Source: Prochlorococcus marinus str. NATL2A (GTDB taxonomy: Bacteria > Cyanobacteriota > Cyanobacteriia > PCC-6307 > Cyanobiaceae). From it: a stretch of DNA of 32,000 nt. A program made the translations under genes and the position numbers. The stretch spans positions 1,200,001 through 1,232,000 of the forward strand of contig NC_007335.2 of the NCBI RefSeq assembly GCF_000012465.1. The letters are read 5' to 3'. Position 1 is the stretch's first letter. The number at the start of each line of letters is the position of its first letter. Shown here piece by piece: positions 11,567 to 32,000 of this stretch. The notes under the pieces are model-generated. The model had not been told where the DNA came from. It saw nothing but the letters and a program-made list of their open reading frames with translations, and did not search any database.

Positions 11567-11694
11567 AATTAAGGAATTAAAGTCGAAATTTTGGCTACCA
11601 TACACTTTTTGGAATTGTTTTTACCAGAATAGTTAGAGGTCTTTATAGGTCTCTCTCATTTTTTACCAAAAAAGCTCTATTTATTTAAAAATAG

Positions 11695-11728
11695 ACAAAA
11701 AAAATACCCCCCATAATAGAGGGGTATT
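11695..11728 (-). terminator. Intrinsic terminator of pcb copy 2
   Basis: The stem atacccc/ggggtat lies about 18 nt 3' of the stop. On the minus strand it is followed by a U-run (an A-run on the plus strand at about 11697-11704). Confidence 0.65.
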
Positions 11729-11745
11729 TTTGTTTTTTTTTTAAT

Positions 11746-12858
11746 CTATCTTGGAGCTCTTCCATTGAAACCAGCGCCTTCAACCCTGACTGTTGCGCCT
11801 TCAGTATTACCAATTGCTTCGGAAACTTTCTTGAAGTCAAATCCTAAAGCACGTAAAGCATGCCAGAAATGACCCTGTAAGAAGAAAAATCCAAAGTAAT
11901 AATGAACATTAACTAAAGCAGCCCTAGTTGTGTGACCAAAGAAAGCTGTTATGCCAGTGCTATCTGCTGTATCAATCCAATATGGAGCAACTGAGAACTG
12001 TAACTTCAAAGGCTCACCAAACCACTCAATGGGATAAACGGTTGTATTGGTAGCAGCCCAGAATGCTGCAACAATTGCCATCCAACCTATACCTGCAAGA
12101 GACCATGAAAGGACTGCCTCTGCAGAAAGCAATTCAGCTCCTTTGTACTTACTCCATTCACCAAGTCTCTTGTTTTCCCATTGAGTTGAACCTGCAACCA
12201 TATGAATAGTTGCTCCGGTCAATTCTGCAAAAGCAAGAAATGCATGTCCACCCATTACATCTTCGAGACTATCAATTCCGATGAAATCAAATTGACGATT
12301 CCATATCATCGTCAAATCAAGATTGTAATTGACCTGTCTAACCGAACCAATAGCTGGATCATATATGCCGTGGATTCTTGCCCATTCAACAAAGGCTATG
12401 CAAGCCATTCCAAAGAAGAATAAATGATGGCCCAGGATAAACGTCTGATTATCCGGATTATTCCATTCCAATTTAAACTTTCTAGCTCTTGGAACCTCAC
12501 TATCTGCAACATCAGCTTCAAAATAAACTGCATGCAATAAAGCACCACCTCCGTAAACCATTGACAAAACCAAGTGAACAATGGCTACGGCTGCTACACC
12601 AACACCAGTCCAAGCTCCAGCCTCGTCAAAACCTACGCCAAAGGCGGCAAGATGCCCCAAGAATAAGGAGCTTTGATGCCCCATAGGGATCTCTGGATTG
12701 TAGCGAGCAAGTTCCCAAAGGGTACTTCCTCCAGCCGCGAATGCGATCAAGCCTGTATGCCCAATATGGGAGGCTATGAATCGACCAGAACGACTTGTGA
12801 CCACAGAATTACCAGCCCACCACTCGTAAGTAACGTCTGGATTTCCATAGCTCTGCAT
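11746..12858 (-). CDS. pcb: Chlorophyll a/b-binding light-harvesting protein Pcb, copy 2 (extended C-terminal tail)
   Basis: MQSYGNPDVTYEWWAGN... with the same conserved core. At 370 aa it has the longest C-terminal tail of the five (...GNTEGATVRVEGAGFNGRAPR). Confidence 0.93.
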   Translation of the reverse strand: MQSYGNPDVTYEWWAGNSVVTSRSGRFIASHIGHTGLIAFAAGGSTLWELARYNPEIPMGHQSSLFLGHLAAFGVGFDEAGAWTGVGVAAVAIVHLVLSMVYGGGALLHAVYFEADVADSEVPRARKFKLEWNNPDNQTFILGHHLFFFGMACIAFVEWARIHGIYDPAIGSVRQVNYNLDLTMIWNRQFDFIGIDSLEDVMGGHAFLAFAELTGATIHMVAGSTQWENKRLGEWSKYKGAELLSAEAVLSWSLAGIGWMAIVAAFWAATNTTVYPIEWFGEPLKLQFSVAPYWIDTADSTGITAFFGHTTRAALVNVHYYFGFFFLQGHFWHALRALGFDFKKVSEAIGNTEGATVRVEGAGFNGRAPR

Positions 12859-13035
12859 AATGTCTAAGCGAATCAGGGAAATATGCGTGCAGATTACACT
12901 CTGTTCAATTGATATGTGCAGAATAGTTAAAGGTCGTTATGTTTGAAATTCTTTTTTCCGGATAATTAAGAGAGACGCAAAGTCTTTTATTAGCTTTATC
13001 AAATCAATGCTTCGAAAGAATTTATTCGACCAAGT

Positions 13036-13073
13036 AAAAAAAAACAAAAAAAAGAGAGGATTAAATCCTCTCT
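13036..13073 (-). terminator. Intrinsic terminator of pcb copy 3
   Basis: The stem agagagga-ttaaa-tcctctct is preceded on the plus strand by a long A-run. This reads as hairpin plus U-run on the minus strand, about 25 nt 3' of the stop at 13098. Confidence 0.75.
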
Positions 13074-13097
13074 TTTAAAAAACAAGTTTTTAATTGT

Positions 13098-14147
13098 TTA
13101 TTCGTAAAGCTGAGCAGGAAGAGGCTCCTTAAGAATTCTCTTAAAATCAAATCCCATAGCTCTTAAAGCATGCCATAGATGACCTTGAAGGAAGAAAAAT
13201 CCAAAGTAATAATGAACATTTGCTAGAGCCGCCCTAGTCGTATGACCAAAGAAAGCTGGACCTCCTGAAAGATCAACACTATCTATCCAATAAGGAGCAA
13301 TACCAAACTTCAAGATCAATGCTTCGCCATACCAAGCTTCTGGGTAAACGGTTGTGTTCTGTGCACACCAGAAAGCAGCAACAACAGCCATCCAACCAAG
13401 ACCTGCACAAGAGAAAGAAAGAATTGCTTCTGCAGAAAGAAGACCAGCTCCTTTGAACTTGGTATATTCACCAACTTGCTTAGTAGCGATATGGAAAGCT
13501 CCACCTGTTATTTCCAAGAAAGCCAAGAAAGCATGGCCTCCCAAAACATCTTCAAGACTATCAATAGCCAAGAAATCAAACTGATGGTTCCAAATACTGG
13601 TCAAGTTAAGGTTGTACTCAACTTGTCGAACAGCTCCTATAGCAGGATCATAAATTCCATGGATTCTTGCCCATTCAACGAACCAAATACATGCAACACC
13701 AAAGAAAAGTAAATGGTGACCAAGTATAAAAGTCTGATTATCTGGGTTGTCCCACTCAAGTTTGAACTTTCTTGCTTGAGGGACCTCTGAATCTTGCATA
13801 TCGCCAACGAATAGCACCGAGTGCAATAAGCCACCGGCTCCATAGACCATGGAAAGAACCAAATGTACGATTGCAATAGAGGCAACTCCTGCCCCTGTCC
13901 AAGCACCAGCCTCATCAAAGCCGATACCAATTGAAGCTAAATGAGCAAGAAAGATCGAACTCTGATGTCCCATTGGAATCTCAGGGTTGTATCTCGCTAG
14001 TTCCCAAAGGGTACTTCCACCTGCTGCAAAGGCTATTAAGCCAGTATGAGCAATGTGTGCAGCAATGAATTTACCTGATTTGTTTGTAACCCCAGCATTT
14101 CCAGCCCACCAACCATAGGTGACATCCGGGTTTCCGTAGGTCTGCAT
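13098..14147 (-). CDS. pcb: Chlorophyll a/b-binding light-harvesting protein Pcb, copy 3
   Basis: MQTYGNPDVTYGWWAGN... with a conserved Pcb core over the full 349 aa. Confidence 0.93.
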   Translation of the reverse strand: MQTYGNPDVTYGWWAGNAGVTNKSGKFIAAHIAHTGLIAFAAGGSTLWELARYNPEIPMGHQSSIFLAHLASIGIGFDEAGAWTGAGVASIAIVHLVLSMVYGAGGLLHSVLFVGDMQDSEVPQARKFKLEWDNPDNQTFILGHHLLFFGVACIWFVEWARIHGIYDPAIGAVRQVEYNLNLTSIWNHQFDFLAIDSLEDVLGGHAFLAFLEITGGAFHIATKQVGEYTKFKGAGLLSAEAILSFSCAGLGWMAVVAAFWCAQNTTVYPEAWYGEALILKFGIAPYWIDSVDLSGGPAFFGHTTRAALANVHYYFGFFFLQGHLWHALRAMGFDFKRILKEPLPAQLYE

Positions 14148-14324
14148 GATTTAAGTTTTTTGGCGTAATACGGTGAGCACACCTTACAGGCACCTGAATT
14201 CAAAAACTACCAATAGTCATAAGGCGTATAAAGAAGTAGTAAAGTTTTTTTTCTTCAAATTGGCTCAACCCCCAACTAAACTAGGTTTTCATGGAAATAC
14301 TCAAGAAAAATTTAAATATCAAAA

Positions 14325-14519
14325 ATGAAATCTGCTTTACAACTTGAATTACAAGACCTTCATGGACTTCCTTATGTAGCAACAATAATTTGGTTTGTTC
14401 TGCTTGGAGTTTCTCTTTTAGCTGTGGTTTTTTATCTTTTTCAGAAAAATTCACCATCCAAAAGAAAAGTTGATGAGGTTTCTCCCACTGAGAAGAAATC
14501 TCGTGCAAAAGGGTTTTAA
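14325..14519 (+). CDS. Hypothetical single-TM small protein inside the pcb array
   Basis: 64 aa with an ATG start, one TM segment (YVATIIWFVLLGVSLLAVVFYLF) and a basic C-terminal tail. There is no family assignment. Confidence 0.35.
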   Translation: MKSALQLELQDLHGLPYVATIIWFVLLGVSLLAVVFYLFQKNSPSKRKVDEVSPTEKKSRAKGF

Positions 14520-14634
14520 ATGACTAAGAAAATTTTGTTTTTCAATGTTAGTTCTCAAATTAATGTAATATCCTCAAACACGGGTTTGGCATAGTGGCCA
14601 CCTGGGTTAACTATAAAAACAATTTTTTTATTCA

Positions 14635-14841
14635 ATGATTGATTTTTCTCACCTTCTTGATTTTGCCACTCAGCTTCCACACCCATCAGATATTGGTTTA
14701 ATCAAACCATCCGGTGGATTTAATATAGCCGCAGCTCTTTGTGGACTTGGAGCAGTTTTTGGAGCGTCTCAATTCTTCTACTATTCTGATGATTCAAAAA
14801 GGATCGATCCTTGGGCTAAGCCTGACAACTACAAAAACTAA
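14635..14841 (+). CDS. Hypothetical single-TM small protein inside the pcb array
   Basis: 68 aa with an ATG start and a Gly/Ala-rich TM segment (FNIAAALCGLGAVFGASQFFYY). A strong hairpin terminator follows within about 35 nt. Confidence 0.45.
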   Translation: MIDFSHLLDFATQLPHPSDIGLIKPSGGFNIAAALCGLGAVFGASQFFYYSDDSKRIDPWAKPDNYKN

Positions 14842-14872
14842 AGAAAGTTAAAACCTCTTTAATTTTTTTCAA

Positions 14873-14911
14873 TAAAAAAAGAGTCTCGTCTTTTGACGAG
14901 ACTCTTTTTTA
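14873..14911. terminator. Bidirectional intrinsic terminator (small ORF on +, pcb copy 4 on -)
   Basis: aaaaaaa-gagtctcgtc-tttt-gacgagactc-tttttt forms a 10-bp stem with A- and T-runs on either side. Confidence 0.8.
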
Positions 14912-14931
14912 ATGCTGAAAGACTCAGAAAA

Positions 14932-16020
14932 TCAATCAGTTAGAGTAACTCTTGCTCCATCAAGATTACTAATTGCATCAGTAACCTTTTTGAAATCAAA
15001 GCCTAGAGCACGTATTGCATGCCAAAGGTGTCCTTGAATAAAGAAGAAACCAAGATAGTAATGAACATTCGCAAGCCAAGCTCTTGAAGTATGACCACTA
15101 ACGACACCAGTCATATCAGCAGTATCAATCCAATATGGAGAGATTCCAAACTTAAGAGCTAATGTTTCTCCGTACCAAGCCTCTGGATAAACAGTTGTAT
15201 TGGTTGCACACCAGAAAGCGGCAATAATTGCCATCCAACCAATACCAGCAAGAGACCAGGAAAGAACTGCTTCAGCAGAAAGAATATTCTTCCCTTTGAA
15301 TTCTGTGTATTCTCCAGTCTGCTTCGTAGCGATATGGAAAGCACCACCTGTGATCTCAACAAATGCTAAGAATGCATGACCACCCATAACATCCTCCAGA
15401 CTATCAATAGCCAAGAAATCAAACTGATGATTCCAAATGTTGGTCAAGTTTAAGTTGTACTCGACTTGTCGAACAGCTCCTATTGCAGGATCGTAAATCC
15501 CATGTATTCGAGCCCACTCAACAAACCAAATACATGCAACACCAAAGAAAATCAAATGGTGACCAAGAATAAAAGTCTGATTATCTGGATTATCCCATTC
15601 AAGCTTGTATCTTGCTGCCTGACGATGTTCAGGACGATCATCAGCAAACAAACCTGAACTATTTTGGGTATCTTCGCTAAAAATCAGAGAGTGCAATAGA
15701 CCTGCACCCGCATAAACCATTGAACAAATCAGATGGAATACTCCGATAAAAGCAATTGATGTTCCGTCGAATACTGTTCCAGTTGGATCAAATCCAATAC
15801 CAATAGAAGCAAGGTGTGGGATGCTCACCATTCCTTGGTGTCCCATTGGAATATCTGGGTTGTATCTAGCGAGCTCCCAAAGTGTGTTGGCACCAGCTGC
15901 GAAACAAATCAATCCTGTATGAGCAACATGCGAGCCAATAAATCGGCTTGACTTATTTGTTACGACAGAATTACCAACCCACCACCCGTAGGTGACGTCT
16001 GGGTTTCCGTAGGACTGCAT
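14932..16020 (-). CDS. pcb: Chlorophyll a/b-binding light-harvesting protein Pcb, copy 4 (divergent, with loop insertion)
   Basis: MQSYGNPDVTYGWWVGN... with the conserved core. It has a divergent segment (MGHQGMVSIPHLASIGIGFDPTGTVFDGTS). It also has a 9-residue longer loop before the (F/Y)KLEW motif (SEDTQNSSGLFADDRPEHRQAARYKLEW). Confidence 0.93.
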   Translation of the reverse strand: MQSYGNPDVTYGWWVGNSVVTNKSSRFIGSHVAHTGLICFAAGANTLWELARYNPDIPMGHQGMVSIPHLASIGIGFDPTGTVFDGTSIAFIGVFHLICSMVYAGAGLLHSLIFSEDTQNSSGLFADDRPEHRQAARYKLEWDNPDNQTFILGHHLIFFGVACIWFVEWARIHGIYDPAIGAVRQVEYNLNLTNIWNHQFDFLAIDSLEDVMGGHAFLAFVEITGGAFHIATKQTGEYTEFKGKNILSAEAVLSWSLAGIGWMAIIAAFWCATNTTVYPEAWYGETLALKFGISPYWIDTADMTGVVSGHTSRAWLANVHYYLGFFFIQGHLWHAIRALGFDFKKVTDAISNLDGARVTLTD

Positions 16021-16213
16021 AATTGAGGAAATTGAAGTCGAAATTCGACCTACCTTACATTTAGTGCAATAAATTTGCTTGAAATCGTAAAAGGTCTTTA
16101 TTTAATGCACAAAAATAATCAATAGAAGAGCTTTAATTATTCATTGATTTTGCTTACAAAACTAGTATCAAAAAGGATTTGAGAATCCTAGTTAAATAGC
16201 AGTCAATATTTTA

Positions 16214-16244
16214 ATAAAAAAAGCCCCGCAAAAATTACGGGGCT
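16214..16244 (-). terminator. Intrinsic terminator of pcb copy 5
   Basis: The stem agccccg-caaaaatta-cggggct is preceded on the plus strand by an A-run, giving hairpin plus U-run on the minus strand. It lies about 29 nt 3' of the stop at 16273. Confidence 0.8.
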
Positions 16245-16272
16245 TCAGAGATTATCCAATCAATTGAATTAG

Positions 16273-17337
16273 TTAGTCATTAAGAGTGATTTGTGCCCTA
16301 TCTAAACCAGCTACAGCATTTGTAACTCTCCTAAAGTCAAAGCCTAATGCACGAATAGCGTGCCATAAATGACCTTGTAAGAAGAAGAATCCAAAATAAT
16401 AATGGACATTTGTTAAAGCAGCTCTTGTGGTGTGACCTGCTAGTGCAGTGCTCTCACTTACCTCTACAGTATCGATCCAATAGGGAGAAATTCCAAATTT
16501 CAAAGCTAAAGGCTCTCCAAACCAAGGTTCAGGATAAACAGTTGTATTTGTTGCGCACCAGAATGCTGCGACAATCGCCATCCAACCAATACCTGCCAAT
16601 GAGAAAGATAAAACAGCTTCGGCAGAAAGGATCCCAGCTCCTTTGAATTCTGTGTATTCTCCTACCTGCTTAGTTGCGATATGGAAAGCACCACCAGTTA
16701 TCTCAACAAATGCTAAAAACGCATGGCCGCCCAAAACATCTTCAAGATTATCTATAGCTAAGAAATCAAACTGATGGTTCCAAATATTGGTCAAATTAAG
16801 GTTGTACTCAACTTGTCGAACAGCTCCTATTGCTGGGTCATAAATCCCGTGAATTCTGGCCCATTCAACAAAAGCAATACAAGCCACCCCAAAGAAAATA
16901 AGATGGTGACCCAAAATAAATGTCAAATTATCGGGATTGTCCCATTCAAGCTTGAATTTTTGAGTAGTAGGTCCTGGCCCATCAGCCAAATCCCCATCAA
17001 AGAGCAGAGAGTGAGAAAGAGCTCCTCCTGCATAAACAAGAGAAGCAATAATATGGACAATTGCTACTGAAGCAACATTCGCTCCAGTCCAAACACCTGC
17101 ATCATCAAATCCAATTCCAATAGATGCAAGATGAGCGAGAAAGATAGAGCTTTGGTGCCCCATGGCTATAGAAGGATCAAACCTAGCTAGCTCCCAAAGA
17201 GTGCTAGCTCCTGCAGCAAATGAAATTAGGCCAGTATGACCAGCATGGGCTGCAATGAACTTTCCAGCGCGGTTGGTAACCCTTGAATTACCAGCCCACC
17301 ACCCGTAGGTGACATCTGGATTTCCATAGGTCTGCAT
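16273..17337 (-). CDS. pcb: Chlorophyll a/b-binding light-harvesting protein Pcb, copy 5
   Basis: MQTYGNPDVTYGWWAGN... with a conserved Pcb core over 354 aa. Confidence 0.93.
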   Translation of the reverse strand: MQTYGNPDVTYGWWAGNSRVTNRAGKFIAAHAGHTGLISFAAGASTLWELARFDPSIAMGHQSSIFLAHLASIGIGFDDAGVWTGANVASVAIVHIIASLVYAGGALSHSLLFDGDLADGPGPTTQKFKLEWDNPDNLTFILGHHLIFFGVACIAFVEWARIHGIYDPAIGAVRQVEYNLNLTNIWNHQFDFLAIDNLEDVLGGHAFLAFVEITGGAFHIATKQVGEYTEFKGAGILSAEAVLSFSLAGIGWMAIVAAFWCATNTTVYPEPWFGEPLALKFGISPYWIDTVEVSESTALAGHTTRAALTNVHYYFGFFFLQGHLWHAIRALGFDFRRVTNAVAGLDRAQITLND

Positions 17338-23248: not shown

Positions 23249-24094
23249 TTAAGTGATATCAATTTTCCACTCTAGTTCACTTTTTAAGTTAGAAGGTCCA
23301 ACAAAACTTCCTCTTAGTGGTGCTACAAGTTCAGATTTTGAAGAAGAGGCCAAAGCAACATAATTATGATTAATCAGTCCGCACCCACTGGGGTCAAAAC
23401 CTCTCCATCCAAAACCAGGTATATAAACCTCTGTCCATGCATGTAATTCATACTTATCAGGAGCTTGATCCATAAATTGATATCCGCTTACAAAACGACT
23501 GGGTATACCAACACATCTACAAGTTTCCATTAACAATATTGCTAAATCTCGGCAAGAACCTACTCTCTCGCTCAGAGTCCTTCCAGAAGTCCATGCTGGT
23601 CCAATATGTCTTGGAGTATATTTAACTCTATCTTTAATTAATTCAATTAAATGATATAAAAAATCCAAAACATTATTATTTATTCCTGCTAAAGCCTCTT
23701 GGGCAATTCTAATAGCGGCAGGATCATGCTGGCCATTAGGAAACCATCCTTTAATAAAACCAATTAATGAATCATTGGATTCAATCTTCAAAGGTAAACT
23801 TAAATCATAATCATTCTTCAACTGATATAAATCTGGGTGGATATTTGTTTCTATATCACTTTCTGTTTTTATCTTTAAAGAATTTGTAGACCCTGTAAAT
23901 AGCAATTTAAAAATATCATCTCCATTATCTGATAGCAAAGGGAAAATAGAATATGGAGAGGGAAAGATTTGCAGATCGAAATTAGATAATTCCTGAAAGC
24001 TATTAGACCTTGGCTTAAGACAAATTAAATGCTCTTCTAGTGATACCGGAATTTCATAATTATAAACTAATGTATGAATTATTTTCTTTTTCAT
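23249..24094 (-). CDS. Transglutaminase-like cysteine peptidase-fold protein
   Basis: A catalytic Cys context (GSCRDLAILLMETCRCVGIPSRFVSGY) is followed by HAWTEVYIPGFGWRGFDPS (His and Asp of the triad). The start overlaps the upstream gene by 4 nt (ATGA). Confidence 0.85.
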   Translation of the reverse strand: MKKKIIHTLVYNYEIPVSLEEHLICLKPRSNSFQELSNFDLQIFPSPYSIFPLLSDNGDDIFKLLFTGSTNSLKIKTESDIETNIHPDLYQLKNDYDLSLPLKIESNDSLIGFIKGWFPNGQHDPAAIRIAQEALAGINNNVLDFLYHLIELIKDRVKYTPRHIGPAWTSGRTLSERVGSCRDLAILLMETCRCVGIPSRFVSGYQFMDQAPDKYELHAWTEVYIPGFGWRGFDPSGCGLINHNYVALASSSKSELVAPLRGSFVGPSNLKSELEWKIDIT

Positions 24095-25065
24095 CCTTGT
24101 AAAGATTCAAAATCAAACTTTTTATCATTTCTAAAATAAATCCCATGTATAAGATCATGCAATTTATTTAAATCAATTTGAAGACTATCAATAGCCTCAT
24201 GTAAACCATCTTTAATCAAGTGATCGATTCTTACAAAGCTCCATTTTGAAAGCAATAATCCTATTAAACATTCAAGATCATTTGGTTTTTTTGAAACGGG
24301 TGAATTTTGAATTTTACTCAAAGATTCATTAATACCTTCGAGGCAAAATCTAACTGATCTTGGAAAGATAGGGTCCAGCAACAAAAAGCTAGCAATTGCA
24401 TTTGGTGTTATTGAACCTTGCTCAGATATTCTAAACATTTGATAAGCACCCGCTGATCGTAATAAAGAAATCCACTGAAGCTCATCCAAGGCTCCTCCAA
24501 GTTCTTTTAGATTTGGTAAAAGTAAAAAGTATTTTACATCTAATATCCTAGAAGTTTTATCAGCTCTCTCAATCAACCTTCCTAATTTACTAAAATTCCA
24601 TGCTATATCATGACTAAAAGTAGCATCAGTAACTCCATAAAACAATTGACAACCTCTTCTAATTTCAAATAATTGTTCTTGAGCAGGTTGATGCCAGATC
24701 ACCTCACCTTCTTGAATACTCCAATATAAACTATTAATTTGTTCCCACATTTCAGAAGTGATCACATCTCTTATTTGACGTGCATTTTCTCTTGCCATAC
24801 AAATACAGCTTAAAATGCTATTAGGATTTTCTCTATCTTTAATAAGGAAATTTGCGACATCACTAGGAGTTTTATTTAGATAGCTTTCATCAAACTTATT
24901 TCTATCTCCACTAGCGTCTACCAAAGGCAACCAAGGCTCAGCACTCCCAGGAGGACAATCTAGTGCCATAGACTCACTCACCTCAACAAATCTAGAAATA
25001 TTTTCTGCACGTTCAAGATATCTGTTAATCCAATAAAGTGATTCAGCGACTCTGCTTAATAACAT
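24091..25065 (-). CDS. Alpha-E domain protein (DUF403)
   Basis: MLLSRVAESLYWINRYLERAENISRFVEV is the characteristic N-terminus of alpha-E/DUF403 proteins. The all-helical 324-aa protein sits between the ATP-grasp and transglutaminase-like genes. Confidence 0.8.
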   Translation of the reverse strand: MLLSRVAESLYWINRYLERAENISRFVEVSESMALDCPPGSAEPWLPLVDASGDRNKFDESYLNKTPSDVANFLIKDRENPNSILSCICMARENARQIRDVITSEMWEQINSLYWSIQEGEVIWHQPAQEQLFEIRRGCQLFYGVTDATFSHDIAWNFSKLGRLIERADKTSRILDVKYFLLLPNLKELGGALDELQWISLLRSAGAYQMFRISEQGSITPNAIASFLLLDPIFPRSVRFCLEGINESLSKIQNSPVSKKPNDLECLIGLLLSKWSFVRIDHLIKDGLHEAIDSLQIDLNKLHDLIHGIYFRNDKKFDFESLQG

Positions 25066-26783: not shown

Positions 26784-29700
26784 TTAGAACAAACCAGTTA
26801 CCTCACTAAATAAAGCCTTATTCTCTAACGACTCAGCAAAACCTAATAACAATTCTCCTCTATTTTCTTGCCCACTGTCTAACTGCTCAACCCAATAATC
26901 ATAACCACCTTGATCTGCATCTCTACCAAGAATATTTTTATATAGATTGTTCACATACGTTCCTGTGTCAACATCAGCTCCATAAGTAGATTTAAACTCT
27001 TCAGAACCTAAGAAAGAATCAGCTACTTGACGGTTACTATTTTCACCAGACGAGTTTTTATCAATCCAATATTCAAGTCCATCAGAATCAGGGAATCTTG
27101 CAAAAGCAGCGTTGTAAACCCTAAACATTTGTCCCGTTGAATCATCTTTCGATTTCACCTGATCAAACGTCTCTTTAATATCGCTAATTCCACTAAAAGA
27201 TTTATCATTAAACTCCAGTTTTGGAACGCCAGTAATATCATCGAATCCATCCTCAGTCTTAACTTCTATTGTTCCATCTTCTCTTTTAAAGAATTTAAAG
27301 TCTTTACTATCACCCGTATATGTTTTAACAACATCTAGTTTAGAAACGTCTACCTTCTGATCGGCGAATTGAATATATTCGACATTCTTTAAAGTGTCAT
27401 TTCCATCATTCAGTCCCTCTCTTTGATCTTGAATCGCAACTGTATCTTTTGTTCGATCAAACTTATAATCAGCAAAATTTCCGGCATAGAACGCAACATC
27501 TTCTCCTTCTCCTCCATCAATAAAGTCTGACCCCAAGCCACCAAAAATCTTGTCAGAAGTCTCGCCTCCTTCCAATCTGTCATCACCGTCATCTTTACTC
27601 TTTACTAGCGACGCCCAATGGCTTGTCGAATCCAATTCAGCTCCATCTCCTTGGGGTTTCTTTAAATCATCAATTTCTTGCCATGGATAAGCGACTTCAC
27701 TAATGGGTTTTTTATCTAAAGCAACTGCCGTTGGATCTAGATTCGCTAATGAAATCACAGCAAGTGCATCTGCTTCTACTGCTTCGGCATGAGCTCTACC
27801 TTCATCAGTCAATGCCCAATCAGCAACACTTAGTCCTGCAGCTAATGCTGCTTCTTCAGGTATCAGACTCACTTCATTTGAAGTAAGAAGGGAATTTGCT
27901 AAGTTTGCTGCCTCTTTAATGGGATCCGTAGTCGCTCCCCAGTAACCCGCTGTTTTATTCGCCTCATTATCTAGTGACGTATCAAAATGCTTGGCATCTG
28001 TCACCCAAGCACCATTAGTAGCCTGATACCCTCCTGCTGATTTGATTTCTTCCGCTGTAATCCCTTCTGGAATTGCAGGCTTTACTTCTCCTTCTGGTGC
28101 TTTCCATCCATCTTTCTCAAAATCTTCTGATTTCACCCATTGGCCAAATGGATCCCAAAAACCTCCATCAGTTTTAATATCCGTCGCTGCAGGTGGTGCC
28201 CAGGCAACAGTTTGAGCATCCGCGCTTCCTTCTCCAAAATGAGCTACGGAAGAAACCCATTTTTTATCGGCATCAAAATATCCACCGTTCTTTTTAATTT
28301 CATCGGTTTCAGGAACAGTTCCCGTGTTATTCAAAAACTCCTTGGATGTGACCCACTTACCATTGGGGTTTCTAAAACCACCATCTTTTTTAATCAATTC
28401 ATCTGGAGGGACAGTCCATCCAGCTGATGATGGATCTTTGAAATAATCGTCTTCTTTAACAAACGTTCCATCAGATTTTGTAAAGCCTCCTGATTTAGCA
28501 ATTGCATCTGCTTCTGGTGGAGTCCAAACAGTCGTTTCTGCTGGTTTATCTCCAGTTGTTCGTTTGCCAAAGAAAGAATCTGCTGTCATCCATTCACCAT
28601 CAGGTCCCCGTAGACCGCCTTCCCAGCGAATGATCTCGTCTTTTGGAAGCACCCAATTTTTAACTGCTGCCGCAGCATCAGGTGCCATTTTTGCTAATTG
28701 ATCCGGAGTAACCGCAGCAAATGATTCTGGATCAAGTTCTTTTAAGGTCTGACCTTTAAATCCAGCCATTGCTTCTGCGTCAAACGCTGCAATGTGCGTT
28801 GGATCAAATCCCTCCATCGCCAAGGGATCAAACGCTGCAATCTGATCTTTTCCAAAGCCTGCTACTGCAGTTGGGGCAAACGCTGCAAAATGATCTTTAT
28901 CAAAACCGGCCATCGCCATTGGATCAAACGCCGCAGCATGCGTGTGATCAAATCCAGCAACTGCCATTGGATCAAACGCCGCAGCATGCGTGTGATCAAA
29001 TCCAGCAACTGCCATTGGGTCAAACGCCGCAGCATGCGTGTGATCAAATCCAGCAACTGCCATTGGATCAAAGGCTGCAAAATGCGTGTGATCAAATCCA
29101 GCAACTGCCATTGGGTCAAACGCAGCAACATGCTCGGGATCAAATCCAGCGACTGCCATTGGGTCAAAGGCTGCAAAATGCGTGTGATCAAATCCAGCAA
29201 CTGCCATTGGGTCAAACGCCGCAGCATGCGTGTGATCAAATCCAGCAACTGCCATTGGATCAAAGGCTGCAAAATGCGTGTGATCAAATCCAGCAACTGC
29301 CATTGGGTCAAACGCCGCAGCATGCGTGTGATCAAATCCAGCAACTGCCATTGGATCAAAGGCTGCAAAATGCGTGTGATCAAATCCAGCAACTGCCATT
29401 GGGTCAAACGCGGCAACATGATCGGGATCAAATCCAGCGACTGCCATTGGGTCAAACGCAGCAACATGCTCGGGATCAAATCCAGCCATTGCCATTGGAT
29501 CAAAGGCTGCAAAATGCGTGTGATCAAACCCTGCAACTGCCATCGGGTCAAAGGCTGCAAAATGCGTATGATCGAACCCTGCAACTGCCATCGGGTCAAA
29601 CGCAGCAACATGCTCGGGATCAAAACCAGCCATGGCCATTGGATCAAAAGCAGCAACATGGTCTTTACCTAGACCTGCCATGTAGCCGTAATCAATCGCC

Positions 29701-32000
29701 GCAAAATGATCCGCATTAAACCCAGCCATCGCTGTTGGATCAAATGCAGCAAATTGATCTTGATCTAAACCTGCTATAGCTTGTGCATCTAAGGCAGCGA
29801 CATGGTCAGCTTTAAATCCAGCCATCGCTTCAGTATCAAAAGCACCCATGTGCTGGTAATCAAAACCAGCCATGGCCATTGGATCAAAAGCAGCAACATG
29901 GTCTTTACCTAGACCTGCCATGTAGCCGTAATCAATCGCCGCAAAATGATCCGCATTAAACCCAGCCATCGCTGTTGGATCAAATGCAGCAAATTGATCT
30001 TGATCTAAACCTGCTATAGCTTGTGCATCTAAGGCAGCGACATGGTCAGCTTTAAATCCAGCCATCGCTTCAGTATCAAAAGCACCCATGTGCTGGTAAT
30101 CAAAACCAGCCATGGCCATTGGATCAAAAGCAGCAACATGGTCTTTACCTAGACCTGCCATGTAGCCGTAATCAATCGCCGCAAAATGATCCGCATTAAA
30201 CCCAGCCATCGCTGTTGGATCAAATGCAGCAAATTGATCTTGATCTAAACCTGCTATAGCTTGTGCATCTAAGGCAGCGACATGGTCAGCTTTAAATCCA
30301 GCCATCGCTTCAGTATCAAAAGCACCCATGTGCTGGTAATCAAAACCAGCCATGGCCATTGGATCAAAAGCAGCAACATGGTCTTTACCTAGACCTGCCA
30401 TGTAGCCGTAATCAATCGCCGCAAAATGATCCGCATTAAACCCAGCCATCGCTGTTGGATCAAATGCAGCAAATTGATCTTGATCTAAACCTGCTATAGC
30501 TTGTGCATCTAAGGCAGCGACATGGTCAGCTTTAAATCCAGCCATCGCTTCAGTATCAAAAGCACCCATGTGCTGGTAATCAAAACCAGCCATGGCCATT
30601 GGATCAAAAGCAGCAACATGGTCTTTACCTAGACCTGCCATGTAGCCGTAATCAATCGCCGCAAAATGATCCGCATTAAACCCAGCCATCGCTGTTGGAT
30701 CAAATGCAGCAAATTGATCTTGATCTAAACCTGCTATAGCTTGTGCATCTAAGGCAGCGACATGGTCAGCTTTAAATCCAGCCATCGCTTCAGTATCAAA
30801 AGCACCCATGTGCTGGTAATCAAAACCAGCCATGGCTGCAGTATCAAAAGCAGCAACATGGTCTTTACCAAAACCGGCGACTGCGGTTGGGTCAAAAGCG
30901 GCAAAGTGATCTCTACCAAAACCGGCGACTGCGGTTGGGTCAAAAGCGGCAAAGTGATCTTTTCCAAAACCGGCGACTGCCGTTGGAGCAAACGAGGCAA
31001 ATTGATCTCTATCAAAATCGCTAACCAAAGAAAACTCAAGATTGGAAATATCTTCTTCACTAAAGGAATCTGGTCTTATTCCACCTATAAGTTCAGCTTT
31101 TGCCCTAGCTTCTGCCCTTCTCCCCATCTCTTCCGCCCTAGCTCTACCTTCTGGGGTATCTGAGTAGTCTTCAGGTGCTAGGCCTGCTGCTGCTGCTGCT
31201 GCCTCAAACTCATCTCTTTCAGCTAAATCTTGAGCACTTGGTCCTTCAGGAGGTTCAAATCCATAAATGCCTTGTCCTTCTCCAGCCAATGTCATTTGGG
31301 CTAAAGCTTCCTCTTCTACTGCTTGAGAATGTGCTCGTCCTTCTGCAGTGTTTGCCCAGTCCGCAACACTAAGCCCTGCTGCAGCTGCTTGCTGATCTGG
31401 GCTCAATAGACCAGAAGGAGAAGGGTCAGGAGGAGAGAAAACATATCCACCTTGACCATCAACAGCCCAATTTGCTGGGGGCATTAAGGATCCATCTTCA
31501 CCTCTTTGCCATCCATCAATTTCACTTTGGCTGGCTTGCTGACCTAGATTATTGCCCGGTGAAGGGAGTATTAGTCCTGCGGCTATGTCCCTTTCTTCTG
31601 CCCTTCTACCCATCTCCTCAGCTCTAGCCCTGCCTTCAGGAGTATCCGAGTAGTCCTCTAAAGCGAGGCCTGCTGCTGCTGCTGCTGCTTCTAACTCTGC
31701 TATATCAGCTAAAGCTTCAGCAGATAGTCCTGGTGGCTCTTCTCTTCGATGATTTCTATCAAAATCATTTTCTGCTTCTCCAGGAACATATTCTCCTGAA
31801 GCTATATCCATAGCCTCCTGCCTATCTGCAAACGCCATACCCTCTTCAGTCATTGCCCAGTCAGCTTCACTAAGACCTGCTGCTGCCGCTGCTGCCTGGC
31901 TCTCGTTTCTGGCAGCTAGATCTCGCTCACTTAGATCTGGTGGTACATATCCTGGGATTTCAGATGGTGGTACATATCCGGGATCTCCATGTGGTGGTAC
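26784..32000 (-). CDS. Giant repetitive Ala/Asp/Gly-rich protein, 5'-partial; RTX-like Ca-binding motif and DUF4214-like C-terminus (probable secreted or cell-surface protein)
   Basis: The frame stays open from 31853 to the window edge. The upstream translation is ...VPPHGDPGYVPPSEIPGYVPPDLSERDLAARNESQAAAAAAGLSEADWA-MTEEG... with no stop and no ATG/GTG/TTG. The listed Met is therefore internal and the start lies beyond 32000. The C-terminal part contains GGLGSDFIDGGEGED. The last roughly 110 aa (VYNAAFARFPDSDGLEYW...NNLYKNILGRDADQGGYDYWVEQL...LLLGFAESLEN) resemble DUF4214. Confidence 0.85.
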   Translation of the reverse strand, partial: VPPHGDPGYVPPSEIPGYVPPDLSERDLAARNESQAAAAAAGLSEADWAMTEEGMAFADRQEAMDIASGEYVPGEAENDFDRNHRREEPPGLSAEALADIAELEAAAAAAGLALEDYSDTPEGRARAEEMGRRAEERDIAAGLILPSPGNNLGQQASQSEIDGWQRGEDGSLMPPANWAVDGQGGYVFSPPDPSPSGLLSPDQQAAAAGLSVADWANTAEGRAHSQAVEEEALAQMTLAGEGQGIYGFEPPEGPSAQDLAERDEFEAAAAAAGLAPEDYSDTPEGRARAEEMGRRAEARAKAELIGGIRPDSFSEEDISNLEFSLVSDFDRDQFASFAPTAVAGFGKDHFAAFDPTAVAGFGRDHFAAFDPTAVAGFGKDHVAAFDTAAMAGFDYQHMGAFDTEAMAGFKADHVAALDAQAIAGLDQDQFAAFDPTAMAGFNADHFAAIDYGYMAGLGKDHVAAFDPMAMAGFDYQHMGAFDTEAMAGFKADHVAALDAQAIAGLDQDQFAAFDPTAMAGFNADHFAAIDYGYMAGLGKDHVAAFDPMAMAGFDYQHMGAFDTEAMAGFKADHVAALDAQAIAGLDQDQFAAFDPTAMAGFNADHFAAIDYGYMAGLGKDHVAAFDPMAMAGFDYQHMGAFDTEAMAGFKADHVAALDAQAIAGLDQDQFAAFDPTAMAGFNADHFAAIDYGYMAGLGKDHVAAFDPMAMAGFDYQHMGAFDTEAMAGFKADHVAALDAQAIAGLDQDQFAAFDPTAMAGFNADHFAAIDYGYMAGLGKDHVAAFDPMAMAGFDPEHVAAFDPMAVAGFDHTHFAAFDPMAVAGFDHTHFAAFDPMAMAGFDPEHVAAFDPMAVAGFDPDHVAAFDPMAVAGFDHTHFAAFDPMAVAGFDHTHAAAFDPMAVAGFDHTHFAAFDPMAVAGFDHTHAAAFDPMAVAGFDHTHFAAFDPMAVAGFDPEHVAAFDPMAVAGFDHTHFAAFDPMAVAGFDHTHAAAFDPMAVAGFDHTHAAAFDPMAVAGFDHTHAAAFDPMAMAGFDKDHFAAFAPTAVAGFGKDQIAAFDPLAMEGFDPTHIAAFDAEAMAGFKGQTLKELDPESFAAVTPDQLAKMAPDAAAAVKNWVLPKDEIIRWEGGLRGPDGEWMTADSFFGKRTTGDKPAETTVWTPPEADAIAKSGGFTKSDGTFVKEDDYFKDPSSAGWTVPPDELIKKDGGFRNPNGKWVTSKEFLNNTGTVPETDEIKKNGGYFDADKKWVSSVAHFGEGSADAQTVAWAPPAATDIKTDGGFWDPFGQWVKSEDFEKDGWKAPEGEVKPAIPEGITAEEIKSAGGYQATNGAWVTDAKHFDTSLDNEANKTAGYWGATTDPIKEAANLANSLLTSNEVSLIPEEAALAAGLSVADWALTDEGRAHAEAVEADALAVISLANLDPTAVALDKKPISEVAYPWQEIDDLKKPQGDGAELDSTSHWASLVKSKDDGDDRLEGGETSDKIFGGLGSDFIDGGEGEDVAFYAGNFADYKFDRTKDTVAIQDQREGLNDGNDTLKNVEYIQFADQKVDVSKLDVVKTYTGDSKDFKFFKREDGTIEVKTEDGFDDITGVPKLEFNDKSFSGISDIKETFDQVKSKDDSTGQMFRVYNAAFARFPDSDGLEYWIDKNSSGENSNRQVADSFLGSEEFKSTYGADVDTGTYVNNLYKNILGRDADQGGYDYWVEQLDSGQENRGELLLGFAESLENKALFSEVTGLF
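28921..29640 (-). repeat. 48-bp near-identical tandem repeat x15 (16-aa units FDPMAVAGFD[HTH/PEH/PDH][F/A/V]AA)
   Basis: Units such as ggatcaaacgccgcagcatgcgtgtgatcaaatccagcaactgccatt repeat head to tail from 28921. The variants differ at a handful of positions and encode HTHFAA, HTHAAA, PEHVAA or PDHVAA. Confidence 0.9.
29619..30836 (-). repeat. 240-bp tandem repeat, 5 copies, identical at every position I compared (80-aa super-units of five 16-aa sub-units)
   Basis: The sequence lines starting at 29641, 29881, 30121, 30361 and 30601, and the three lines after each, are letter-for-letter identical. The protein repeats one 80-aa unit five times. That unit is GFDYQHMGAFDTEAMAGFKADHVAALDAQAIAGLDQDQFAAFDPTAMAGFNADHFAAIDYGYMAGLGKDHVAAFDPMAMA. 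Confidence 0.95.

What the first reader, a model, noticed from the sequence alone, without database searches (positions are those of the whole stretch)
29619..30836. Five 240-bp units with 100% nucleotide identity inside a coding region
The five copies are identical letter for letter over about 1.2 kb. Other internal duplications in the same gene have accumulated many synonymous differences, for example the EDYSDTPEGRARAEEMGRRAE modules at about 31100-31200 and 31590-31690. This implies very recent expansion or continuous homogenisation by unequal recombination. It also makes the locus a likely contingency or copy-number-variable site. The same property makes it a classic place for assembly collapse or expansion, so the true copy number is uncertain.
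Basis: seen in the sequence. Interest (0 to 1): 0.65.

Follow-up and report, generated by a model that had tools for sequence, protein, structure and literature searches.

The report
Perfect 240-bp repeats, Prochlorococcus surface-protein gene
A giant, probably secreted or surface protein gene of a low-light Prochlorococcus carries five letter-identical 240-bp (80-amino-acid) modules, and related strains carry one or four, so this is a real variable-length repeat of a familiar bacterial kind.

Summary
Window 29619-30836 is perfectly 240-periodic (5 copies plus 18 nt, no mismatch). It lies in a minus-strand gene whose start is beyond the window end; the full product is 1821 aa.

Each 240-bp module is a higher-order repeat of five different 16-aa units (A-E), within an array of 47-48 such units. 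These belong to the Pfam ALTTAQ repeat family and are predicted as a solenoid of 8-residue helices. The array is followed by an RTX motif and a C-terminal DUF4214 domain.

The same A-E block sits at the same locus in other LLI-clade genomes:
- MIT1214: 1 copy.
- MIT0916 (PacBio-closed): 4 copies, with one synonymous difference.
- This strain: 5 copies.

Copies are identical within a genome but only 77-83% identical between genomes. That means lineage-specific amplification or homogenisation by unequal recombination. In the single-copy state the block is flanked by a 33-nt direct repeat 240 nt apart, which is a ready substrate.

A strict contingency (on/off) locus is not supported, because the units are in frame. 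The exact copy number in this assembly could not be checked against reads.

This is a new member of a known kind, of moderate interest.

The parts
26784..32000 (-). Giant repeat-protein gene. The N-terminal 83 codons lie beyond the window end; the full product is 1821 aa and the stop codon is at 26784-26786.
   Evidence: The translation is open from 32000 to 26787. The gene is called as 1821 aa in L001/L055. The window is identical to L001 over 17,910 nt. Orthologues are found in MIT0916, MIT1214 and single-cell genomes. GC3 of 0.24-0.31 is close to neighbouring genes, so the high GC comes from amino-acid composition.
29619..30836 (-). The finding itself: a perfectly 240-periodic tract, five identical 80-aa superunits [A B C D E] plus 18 nt.
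   Evidence: Lag-240 identity run of 978 nt. TRF reports period 240. The unit table shows units 5-29 repeating exactly.
28704..31007 (-). The whole array of 47-48 units of 48 nt (16 aa). The consensus is xDHxAAFDPxAMAGFx, which is two 8-residue half-repeats per unit.
   Evidence: Unit tables. TRF period 48. Pfam ALTTAQ_rpt scores 56.7 bits against a cut-off of 26.4. AF2 predicts one short helix per 8 residues at pLDDT 93 in 5 of 5 models. PDB 9ZEM HeliScrew4 matches at E=1.2e-9.
30816..30863 (-). Unit 4 (E-prime), a diverged copy of unit E just upstream of the perfect tract. Its last 18 nt start the perfect periodicity.
   Evidence: Unit 4 reads DHVAAFDTAAMAGFDY and unit 9 reads DHVAAFDPMAMAGFDY. 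In single-copy MIT1214 the equivalent E-prime and E share a 33-nt perfect direct repeat 240 nt apart.
28896..29663 (-). Second sub-array, units 29-44 (DPMAVAGFDHTH[F/A]AAF type). It is less homogeneous and contains nested 96-nt and 192-nt perfect stretches.
   Evidence: Unit table. Identity runs at lag 96 (29164-29315) and lag 192 (28986-29123). It is absent from MIT1214, has 5-6 units of another sequence type in MIT0916, and 11 in AG-424-E20.
27905..28928 (-). Segment shared at 98.7% nt identity with a tandem paralogue (1538 aa) that lies beyond psbA, outside the window.
   Evidence: blastn of L055:1-2900 against L055:4257-9900. Translations of the paralogue.
26794..27741 (-). 3' segment shared at 99.9% nt identity (1 mismatch in 948) with the same upstream paralogue.
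   Evidence: C-terminal protein identity is 99% between the paralogues against 82-92% for orthologues. Short-read Logan contigs end about 45 nt inside the gene's 3' end, within about a k-mer of the border of paralogue identity.
27495..27593 (-). RTX calcium-binding nonapeptide motif.
   Evidence: Pfam HemolysinCabind, 25.4 bits against a cut-off of 23, residues 1470-1502 of the window translation.
26808..27023 (-). C-terminal DUF4214 domain.
   Evidence: Pfam PF13946, E=5.5e-32, full-length match 1-72 of 72.
31110..31172 (-). Older internal duplicate: EDYSDTPEGRARAEEMGRRAE module, copy 2. Copy 1 is at 31596-31658.
   Evidence: 10 synonymous differences in 63 nt between the two copies. The wider 150-nt repeat pair is 79% identical.
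31938..32000 (-). Start of the N-terminal proline-rich 27-nt repeats (PPPSGDPGY), which continue beyond the window.
   Evidence: TRF. Full N-terminus in L001. MIT0916 and MIT1214 have different Pro-rich repeats at this position.

Best explanation
**What it is.** The tract is a recently amplified higher-order tandem repeat inside the gene for a giant, probably exported or cell-surface protein of a low-light (LLI-clade) Prochlorococcus.

**Ancestral state.** The ancestral gene held one block of five different 16-aa units (A-E). It was bracketed by two similar E-type units 240 nt apart.

**Mechanism (inferred).**
- Misaligned recombination or slipped replication between those E-type units duplicated the 240-bp block.
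- Once two identical blocks existed, unequal sister-strand exchange could add or remove whole 240-bp blocks.
- This keeps copies identical within a genome while copy number drifts between lineages (1, 4, 5).

**Effect on the protein.**
- Each block is 80 codons, so the reading frame is kept.
- Each step adds or removes ten 8-residue helical repeats from a rod-like solenoid. The change is in the length of the protein, not its expression.

**What is shown.**
- Perfect identity of the copies.
- The in-frame higher-order structure.
- Orthology of the block across genomes.
- Different copy numbers in different genomes.
- The flanking direct repeat in the single-copy state.
- The predicted fold.

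**What is inferred.**
- The recombination mechanism.
- Export by a type I secretion system and surface attachment through RTX and DUF4214.
- Any selective value of length variation, for example against phage or grazers.
For: - **Perfect periodicity.** 29619-30836 is perfectly 240-periodic.
- **Higher-order structure.** Each 240-nt block is five distinct 48-nt units sharing only 21-36 of 48 nt with each other.
- **Old block.** Window units A-E best match A-E of MIT0916, MIT1214 and L057 in the same order, so the block predates strain divergence.
- **Same locus.** The gene sits immediately upstream of the CP_ATPgrasp / Alpha-E / transglutaminase genes in all three genomes.
- **Copy numbers.** 1 in MIT1214 (CP114777), 4 in MIT0916 (CP138980, closed with PacBio) with a single synonymous difference in the edge copy, and 5 here.
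- **Divergence between genomes.** The blocks are 77-83% identical in nt.
- **Substrate for the first duplication.** The single-copy MIT1214 has E-prime and E sharing a 33-nt perfect repeat 240 nt apart.
- **Selection on the protein is not enough.** Old duplicates in the same gene show 10 synonymous changes in 63 nt, so protein-level selection alone cannot explain zero differences.
- **Homogenisation at a larger scale.** The 3' 2 kb is 98.7-99.9% identical to a tandem paralogue.
- **Fold.** AF2 gives pLDDT 92-93 in 5 of 5 models, with one helix per 8 residues. There is a sequence match to the crystallised 8-mer helical screw 9ZEM.
- **Extracellular context of the repeat family.** Relatives carry ALTTAQ repeats together with Big_5, fn3, subtilase, FG-GAP and RTX domains.
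- **Functional precedent.** The RTX-DUF4214 protein Psh of Pseudomonas putida is exported by a type I system and binds O-antigen (bioRxiv 10.64898/2026.09.02.748959).
Against: - **No read-level check.** The copy number and the perfect identity in this assembly were not checked against reads.
- **The two assemblies are weak confirmation.** They differ only inside repeated DNA, one difference being an N. That looks like polishing noise, which weakens them as independent evidence and could mean small differences between copies were erased.
- **No variation within the strain.** Both assemblies have five copies.
- **Two scenarios not separated.** Independent amplification from a single copy and a long-standing array kept uniform by conversion cannot be told apart with three genomes.
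- **No secretion genes nearby.** No type I secretion genes are in the window. Only a HlyD-family gene lies near the MIT0916 orthologue.
- **No N-terminal signal peptide is evident** (by eye).
- **Nothing in metagenomes.** Metagenome contigs gave no exact copy of the block.
Confidence: 0.8

Rival explanations
1. Assembly or polishing artefact. The true array in this strain has a different number of 240-bp blocks, or the blocks are not strictly identical, and the assembler or a mapping-based polishing step produced five perfect copies.
For: - A 1.2-kb perfect repeat cannot be resolved by short reads. Logan short-read contigs from related runs stop at this gene.
- L001 carries an N in psbA, and all differences between the two assemblies lie in multi-copy DNA. 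That is typical of consensus polishing with ambiguously mapped reads.
- I could not find the sequencing method for GCA_047285275.1.
Against: - Two assemblies (1,836,414 and 1,837,263 bp contigs) both have five copies.
- Chromosome-scale contigs that pass through a 2-kb 99% paralogue repeat and multi-copy psbA and pcb genes imply long reads or equivalent.
- PacBio-closed MIT0916 has the same architecture, with 4 near-perfect copies and one preserved synonymous difference.
- A 1.2-kb array is trivially spanned by long reads.
Confidence: 0.12
2. An ancient multi-copy array kept uniform by continuous gene conversion (concerted evolution), rather than recent independent amplifications from a single-copy ancestor. 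On this view the single-copy genomes are contractions.
For: - Two diverged lineages (window strain and MIT0916) both carry multi-copy arrays at the same position in the gene.
- The only variant in MIT0916 is in the edge copy. This is the classical pattern for arrays homogenised by unequal exchange.
- The upstream paralogue has a diverged (79%) 240-nt periodicity, so five-unit periodicity recurs in the family.
- The 3' ends of the paralogues are also homogenised.
Against: - MIT1214 (complete genome) has one block and retains the E-prime / E direct repeat that would seed a first duplication.
- AG-424-E20 also appears to have one block, although a collapse in that short-read single-cell assembly is possible.
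- The tract boundaries differ between the window strain (5 x 240 + 18 nt) and MIT0916 (4 x 240 + 70 nt).
Confidence: 0.3
3. A true contingency locus: high-frequency, reversible gain and loss of blocks within clonal populations, selected because it changes the phage or grazer susceptibility of subpopulations.
For: - Perfect 240-bp tandem copies are good substrates for RecA-dependent unequal exchange (established knowledge, not tested here).
- Copy number differs between strains.
- DUF4214-RTX protein Psh masks phage receptors in P. putida.
Against: - The units are in frame, so there is no on/off switching.
- Both assemblies of the strain have five copies.
- No population data are available.
- No simple-sequence tract is involved.
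Confidence: 0.15

Closest known systems
Alp/Rib family surface proteins of streptococci (alpha C protein of group B Streptococcus), with large DNA-identical in-frame tandem repeats whose number varies between isolates (from my own knowledge, not tested here)
   Same: - Long in-frame repeat units (about 240-250 bp), identical at the nucleotide level within a strain.
- Copy number differs between strains.
- Gain and loss by recombination between repeats changes protein length, not expression.
   Different: - The fold is different: Ig-like Rib domains there, 8-residue helical solenoid here.
- The export route is different: Gram-positive LPXTG anchoring there.
- Here the unit is itself a higher-order repeat of five diverged 16-aa units.
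- There is no evidence here for immune or phage selection.
Giant RTX adhesins exported by type I secretion (LapA, SiiE, Marinomonas MpIBP with about 120 DNA-identical 104-aa repeats) (from my own knowledge)
   Same: - A very large repetitive extender region, followed by a C-terminal RTX motif.
- Repeats can be identical at the DNA level.
- The extender length is set by the repeat number.
   Different: - The extender here is alpha-helical (ALTTAQ or helical-screw type), not BIg beta-sandwich.
- There is only one short RTX stretch.
- No N-terminal retention module was recognised.
- No adjacent type I secretion genes are in the window.
Psh, the RTX-DUF4214 protein of Pseudomonas putida KT2440 (bioRxiv 10.64898/2026.09.02.748959)
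   Same: - Both have an RTX motif next to a C-terminal DUF4214 domain.
- Psh is exported by a type I system, binds O-antigen and shields phage receptors. This gives a concrete model for how the C-terminus of this protein could work.
   Different: - Psh is small and has no ALTTAQ array.
- The authors report RTX-DUF4214 fusions mainly in Gammaproteobacteria.
- Nothing about export or LPS binding was tested here.
Pfam ALTTAQ repeat (PF20080) and the designed 8-mer alpha-helical screw HeliScrew4 (PDB 9ZEM; bioRxiv 10.64898/2025.12.04.691947)
   Same: - 8-residue periodicity, with an apolar core and a Pro or Asp helix start.
- The whole-protein Pfam score is above the cut-off.
- phmmer gives E=1.2e-9 to 9ZEM over 111 residues.
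- AF2 predicts one short helix per 8 residues.
- Relatives carry strong ALTTAQ hits.
   Different: - The Prochlorococcus units are a divergent FAAFDP / AMAGF version, and no single stretch passes the Pfam domain threshold.
- No solved natural structure is close. The best Foldseek hit is mesothelin at TM about 0.3, and 7QLR scores only E=1.9.
- HeliScrew4 is a design, not a homologue.
Higher-order repeats of satellite DNA (alpha-satellite HORs), as a formal analogy only
   Same: Diverged monomers (here 48 nt, 44-75% identical to each other) are grouped into a multi-monomer block that is amplified as a unit, with near-100% identity between blocks.
   Different: - This array is coding, in frame and only five blocks long.
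- It is bacterial.
- It has no structural chromosomal role.

Membership tests
Variable-number in-frame tandem repeats in bacterial surface/exported protein genes | The repeat unit is a multiple of 3 nt and lies inside an intact ORF. | tested here: met
   240 nt equals 80 codons. The ORF is open across the array and the full product is 1821 aa.
Variable-number in-frame tandem repeats in bacterial surface/exported protein genes | Copies are (near-)identical at the nucleotide level within a genome, including at synonymous sites. | tested here: met
   0 differences over 1218 nt. MIT0916 has 1 synonymous difference among 4 copies.
Variable-number in-frame tandem repeats in bacterial surface/exported protein genes | Copy number differs between strains at the orthologous locus. 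| tested here: met
   1 (MIT1214), 4 (MIT0916) and 5 (window strain), with conserved downstream synteny.
Variable-number in-frame tandem repeats in bacterial surface/exported protein genes | The protein is exported or surface exposed. | not testable with these tools
   The evidence is only indirect: the RTX motif and DUF4214, and the extracellular domain partners of related ALTTAQ proteins.
Contingency locus (phase-variable gene, sensu Moxon) | A simple-sequence tract whose length changes switch expression on or off, by frameshift or promoter spacing. | tested here: not met
   The unit is 240 nt and in frame. No homopolymer or short-unit tract is involved in the finding.
Contingency locus (phase-variable gene, sensu Moxon) | High-frequency reversible variation within a clonal population. 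| not tested
   Only two assemblies of the strain were available, and both have five copies. No reads were available.
Pfam ALTTAQ repeat (PF20080) | The whole-protein score is above Pfam's gathering cut-off. | tested here: met
   56.7 bits against 26.4, E=1.9e-15.
Pfam ALTTAQ repeat (PF20080) | Individual repeats match the model significantly. | tested here: inconclusive
   0 stretches pass on their own. However, relatives found by exhaustive HMMER with this array as query score 82-203 bits for ALTTAQ_rpt.
Type I secretion (RTX) substrates | Glycine- and aspartate-rich nonapeptide repeats near the C-terminus. | tested here: met
   HemolysinCabind scores 25.4 bits against a cut-off of 23, in one stretch. 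The match is weak and short.
Type I secretion (RTX) substrates | Cognate ABC transporter, membrane-fusion protein and outer-membrane genes, usually nearby. | tested here: inconclusive
   None in the window or the fetched flanks of the source strain. A HlyD-family gene lies about 4.4 kb upstream of the MIT0916 orthologue.
DUF4214 (PF13946) proteins | A full-length match to the domain model above the cut-off. | tested here: met
   110.1 bits against 23.2, model positions 1-72 of 72, at the extreme C-terminus.
Psh-like phage-shield proteins (RTX-DUF4214, O-antigen binding) | Type I secretion-dependent export, binding to LPS O-antigen, and protection from phage. | not testable with these tools
   Only the RTX plus DUF4214 arrangement is shared.

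The most novel reading that the evidence does not exclude
The array is a natural alpha-helical-screw rod, a fold recently reported as almost absent from known natural structures. It sits in a type I-secreted protein anchored to the cell envelope by DUF4214, in the most abundant marine phototroph. Recombination tunes the rod's length in quanta of ten 8-residue repeats (80 aa). This would give wild LLI populations a standing length polymorphism that alters access of phages or grazers to the cell surface.
Probability: 0.2. Interest if true: 0.7.

Novelty: new member of a known kind. Interest (0 to 1): 0.45.

Why it matters
**Relevance to Prochlorococcus.** Its genomes are streamlined, and strain-level differences in cell-surface genes are thought to govern who is killed by which phage (my own knowledge). 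A gene whose product changes from 1276 to 1821 aa between LLI strains, mainly by gain of identical repeat blocks, is a plausible contributor to that surface diversity. It is also a practical strain marker.

**Relevance to assembly.** Short-read assemblies and single-cell genomes break or may collapse at this locus, so its diversity is likely under-reported.

**Side result.**
- The repeat is predicted with high confidence as an 8-residue helical solenoid.
- It matches in sequence a designed 'helical screw' whose authors asked why the fold is so rare in nature.
- The Pfam ALTTAQ family appears to be its natural home. An exhaustive search found 572 clusters at 50% identity, and the four top hits tested sit in extracellular domain contexts.

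Tried and rejected
- **Phage origin.** megablast of the non-repeat part against phage genomes gave no match.
- **Foreign origin as the cause of high GC.** Rejected. The excess is in codon positions 1 and 2, and GC3 is close to the neighbours.
- **Exact look-up of the 1821-aa protein.** It is not in the 15-billion-protein collection, with or without the stop codon. No cluster-based list of length variants was therefore possible.
- **Look-ups of artificial 0-10-copy variants.** I built them but did not submit them. One search had already shown nothing more than 71% identical in that collection.
- **Protein searches.** Both were saturated by word-sharing candidates and returned few relatives. The second missed P0001, so absence there means little.
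- **Metagenome scan for the D-unit motif (FAAIDYGYMAG).** 0 hits.
- **Metagenome scan with the C-terminus.** Only short contigs that end at or near the array.
- **Pseudo-alignment of shifted array segments for AF2.** MAFFT re-registered the rows, so it was not used.
- **Strain name and sequencing method of GCA_047285275.1.** Literature searches by accession and run numbers found nothing.
- **Literature on this gene.** Searches for Prochlorococcus with DUF4214, and for ALTTAQ, found nothing.
- **tRNA-linked island boundary.** There are no tRNA genes in the window.
- **Plus-strand ORFs over the array (28769-29719 and others).** Dismissed as by-products of the repeat, because homologues confirm the minus-strand frame.
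Full report
**1. The observation**

A self-comparison of the window at lag 240 gives one uninterrupted identity run of 978 nt, from 29619 to 29619+977. So 29619-30836 (1218 nt) is perfectly 240-periodic: five full copies plus 18 nt. These are exactly the coordinates given. Tandem Repeats Finder independently reports period 240, 5.2 copies, 99% matches over 29619-30869. With a per-base match chance of about 0.26, such a run has probability near 1e-570 (my arithmetic).

The tract is coding on the minus strand. The frame is open from the window end (32000) down to a stop at 26784-26786. The 1689-aa ORF listed is only the part after the first in-window ATG.

The two EDYSDTPEGRARAEEMGRRAE modules (31596-31658 and 31110-31172) are identical in protein but differ at 10 of 63 nt, all synonymous. 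The wider 150-nt pair is 79% identical.

**2. Where the window comes from**

A neighbouring gene (Alpha-E protein, 24091-25065) is found on two NCBI chromosome-scale contigs:
- JBJBDO010000002.1 of GCA_047285275.1, 1,836,414 bp.
- JBJBDY010000002.1 of GCA_047285065.1, 1,837,263 bp.

It is also found on many short Logan contigs. The window is identical to the first NCBI contig over 17,910 nt and differs from the second at one base, window 29134.

The context is a low-GC genome (about 30-35%) with five tandem pcb genes, psbA, photolyase-like genes and a CP_ATPgrasp / Alpha-E / transglutaminase trio. Relatives are Prochlorococcus of the LLI clade. I could not find the strain name or the sequencing method.

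The full gene is 1821 aa (L001:2817-8282), and its first 83 codons lie beyond the window. Its high GC (41-49%) sits in codon positions 1 and 2. GC3 (0.24-0.31) is close to that of the neighbours (0.18-0.22) and of the pcb genes (0.30-0.34). It therefore reflects an Ala/Gly/Asp/Pro-rich composition and not foreign origin.

**3. Anatomy of the gene**

From N to C, the protein contains:
- Proline-rich 9-aa repeats (PPPSGDPGY).
- Acidic/alanine modules.
- An array of 47-48 units of 16 aa (48 nt), window 31007 to 28704.
- Six diverged Trp-rich repeats, about 35-40 aa each by eye.
- One RTX nonapeptide stretch.
- A C-terminal DUF4214 domain.

Inside the array, units 5-29 are five exact repetitions of a block of five different units:
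- A: QHMGAFDTEAMAGFKA
- B: DHVAALDAQAIAGLDQ
- C: DQFAAFDPTAMAGFNA
- D: DHFAAIDYGYMAGLGK
- E: DHVAAFDPMAMAGFDY

The five unit types share only 21-36 of 48 nt with each other. The 240-bp unit is therefore a higher-order repeat of old, diverged monomers.

The block is preceded by a diverged E-like unit (unit 4). It is followed by a second, less uniform sub-array (units 29-44, DPMAVAGFDHTH[F/A]AAF) that contains its own nested perfect 96-nt and 192-nt stretches.

**4. Comparison with other genomes**

The orthologous gene sits at the same place, immediately upstream of the CP_ATPgrasp / Alpha-E / transglutaminase genes, in two complete LLI genomes:
- **MIT1214** (CP114777, protein P0001, 1276 aa) has 12-13 units in all and exactly one A-E block.
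- **MIT0916** (CP138980) was closed from PacBio reads according to PMC12675747. It has four A-E blocks that differ by a single synonymous base in the first copy, followed by five perfect 48-nt units of another type.

The upstream flank differs between the three genomes (noted in section 9).

Unit types are positionally orthologous between genomes: A best matches A, B matches B, and so on, in the window strain against MIT0916, MIT1214 and metagenome contig L057. Whole blocks are only 77-83% identical between genomes, while they are 100% (here) or at least 99.6% (MIT0916) identical within a genome.

The block is therefore older than the strains, but its copies are much younger than the strains, or are kept uniform.

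In the single-copy MIT1214, the E-like unit before the block and the E unit at its end share a 33-nt perfect direct repeat exactly 240 nt apart. That is the substrate needed for a first duplication by misaligned recombination or slippage.

Single-cell genome contigs (L011, L014, L015) and metagenome contigs (L057-L059) end at or within the array or short of it. The AG-424-E20 contig L013 instead reads through a single A-E block before it ends. Overall, short-read data handle this locus poorly.

**5. A second scale of homogenisation**

In the source genome a tandem paralogue (1538 aa) lies upstream beyond psbA, outside the window. Its last 2 kb is 98.7% (1024 nt) and 99.9% (948 nt) identical to window 27905-28928 and 26794-27741. 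The two C-termini are 99% identical in protein, while orthologues in other strains are 82-92% identical.

The Logan short-read contigs start about 45 nt inside the gene's 3' end, within about a k-mer of the border of this paralogue identity. This is as expected if the duplication is present in those read sets.

The paralogue's own array has a 240-nt periodicity at only 79% identity. Five-unit periodicity therefore recurs in the family, and only the window gene's copy has been freshly amplified.

**6. Most likely mechanism**

*Shown.*
- Identity of the copies including synonymous sites.
- The in-frame higher-order structure.
- The orthology and age of the block.
- Different copy numbers in different genomes.
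- The flanking direct repeat in the single-copy state.

*Inferred.*
- Unequal exchange between the E-type units created a duplication.
- Further unequal sister-strand exchange between 240-bp blocks adds or removes blocks and keeps them uniform.

Selection on the protein cannot explain zero synonymous differences, because older duplicates in the same gene have accumulated many.

Whether the four- and five-copy arrays arose independently from a single copy, or descend from an older array kept uniform by conversion, cannot be decided with three genomes. The single-copy MIT1214 and the different tract boundaries (5 x 240 + 18 nt here, 4 x 240 + 70 nt in MIT0916) favour independent amplification. 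The edge-copy variant in MIT0916 and the paralogue's old periodicity favour the older-array view.

**7. What the repeat encodes**

- The array scores above the Pfam whole-protein cut-off for the ALTTAQ repeat (56.7 against 26.4 bits), although no single stretch passes alone.
- AlphaFold2 on units 1-16 gave pLDDT 93 in one of five models from the single sequence. With an 11-row alignment it gave 92-93 in all five models (pTM 0.85), with one short helix every 8 residues.
- phmmer against PDB sequences hits 9ZEM, 'HeliScrew4', at E=1.2e-9 over 111 residues. This is a designed 8-residue alpha-helical screw. Its authors state that only one natural example (7QLR) was known (bioRxiv 10.64898/2025.12.04.691947).
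- Foldseek finds no close solved natural fold. The best hit is mesothelin at TM about 0.3, and 7QLR scores E=1.9. 9ZEM did not appear among the Foldseek matches, and I assume it is not in that library copy.
- An exhaustive HMMER search of 1.84 billion cluster representatives finds 572 relatives at E<=1e-3 and 227 at E<=1e-10. Most of the best hits listed are long proteins.
- Four of four top hits tested carry strong ALTTAQ hits next to Big_5, fn3, subtilase, FG-GAP or RTX domains. These are extracellular contexts.

Each 240-bp block therefore adds ten 8-residue helical repeats to a rod-like solenoid.

The C-terminal RTX motif plus DUF4214 resembles Psh of Pseudomonas putida. Psh is exported by a type I system and binds O-antigen, masking phage receptors (bioRxiv 10.64898/2026.09.02.748959). 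That is a lead for function and not a test. No secretion genes are in the window. Only a HlyD-family gene lies near the MIT0916 orthologue.

**8. Reliability of the copy number**

Two assemblies agree on five copies. Their only three differences in 21 kb lie in repeated DNA:
- Two are in multi-copy psbA, and one of these is an N.
- One is in array unit 40, where the variant base equals the base of neighbouring units.

This pattern suggests mapping-based polishing. The assemblies are therefore weak independent evidence, and tiny differences between blocks could have been erased. The PacBio-closed MIT0916 array shows that multi-copy near-perfect blocks are real in this gene family. I rate an artefact in copy number or identity at about 0.12.

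**9. Verdict**

A strict contingency locus is not supported, because the units are in frame and there is no within-strain variation in the data at hand.

The phenomenon belongs to a well-known class: DNA-identical in-frame repeats in large exported or surface proteins, such as the Alp/Rib proteins and giant RTX adhesins. It is a new member of a known kind.

Added value comes from three points:
- The higher-order structure of the unit.
- The two scales of homogenisation at a variable genomic boundary. The upstream flank differs in all three genomes, while the downstream flank is conserved.
- The likely natural helical-screw fold.

Interest is 0.45.

Noticed in passing
window 28704-31007 (minus strand): The 16-aa units are two 8-residue repeats. 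They match the designed 'HeliScrew4' crystal structure (PDB 9ZEM) at E=1.2e-9 and are predicted by AF2 (pLDDT 93, 5 of 5 models) as one short helix per 8 residues. The preprint that describes the fold says it is almost absent from natural structures. Pfam ALTTAQ repeats (572 clusters found here) look like its natural counterpart.
   Followed up: partly
L055:1-2760 (outside the window, upstream of psbA; equivalent to window coordinates above about 33.7 kb): A tandem paralogue of the giant gene (1538 aa in one assembly, 1536 aa in the other). Its 3' 2 kb is 98.7-99.9% identical to window 26794-28928. psbA sits between the two direct repeats, so recombination between them would delete psbA and fuse the genes.
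   Followed up: partly
window 10024-10354, in ORF 9792-10433 (+): Another near-perfect coding tandem repeat: 18.4 copies of an 18-nt unit at 99% identity. It encodes (PEVTPE)n in a small protein with a hydrophobic N-terminus.
   Followed up: no
window 10511-17337 (minus strand): Five tandem paralogous genes of 349-370 aa. The two nearest the giant gene match Pfam PSII (PF00421), as expected for pcb chlorophyll a/b antenna proteins. Their GC (42-44%) is higher than the background. Short-read contigs also break here.
   Followed up: no
window 29134 (L002:5932): This is the only difference between the two assemblies inside the window (A to C, Glu1039Ala). It lies in array unit 40 and makes that position equal to the base of neighbouring units (ACGCAT). 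It could be a micro-conversion or a polishing artefact.
   Followed up: partly
L001:2031 and L001:2121 (psbA, outside the window): The source assembly has a base difference and an ambiguous base (N) in multi-copy psbA relative to its sister assembly. This suggests consensus polishing with ambiguously mapped reads.
   Followed up: partly
window 27742-27904 (minus strand): A 54-aa insertion relative to the upstream paralogue contains an AAGLSVADWALTDEGRAHAEAVE module. This module is related (75% nt) to N-terminal modules of the same gene at 31339-31389, so a module has been copied within the gene.
   Followed up: no
window 31938-32000 and L001:2817-3100; L012:7289-7606; P0001 residues 1-90: The N-terminal proline-rich repeats have completely different sequence types in the three genomes: PPPSGDPGY here, PAPAPA/PSPEPSPGR in MIT0916, and PPPQG/PPPPGEFA in MIT1214. 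This is a second hypervariable region of the protein.
   Followed up: no
L012:1-7276, L111:1-10000, L055:1-4256: The DNA upstream of the giant gene differs in all three genomes. It is paralogue plus psbA here, TPR/methyltransferase genes plus psbA in MIT1214, and a HlyD-family gene plus YchF in MIT0916. Downstream synteny is conserved. The gene therefore sits at the edge of a variable region.
   Followed up: partly
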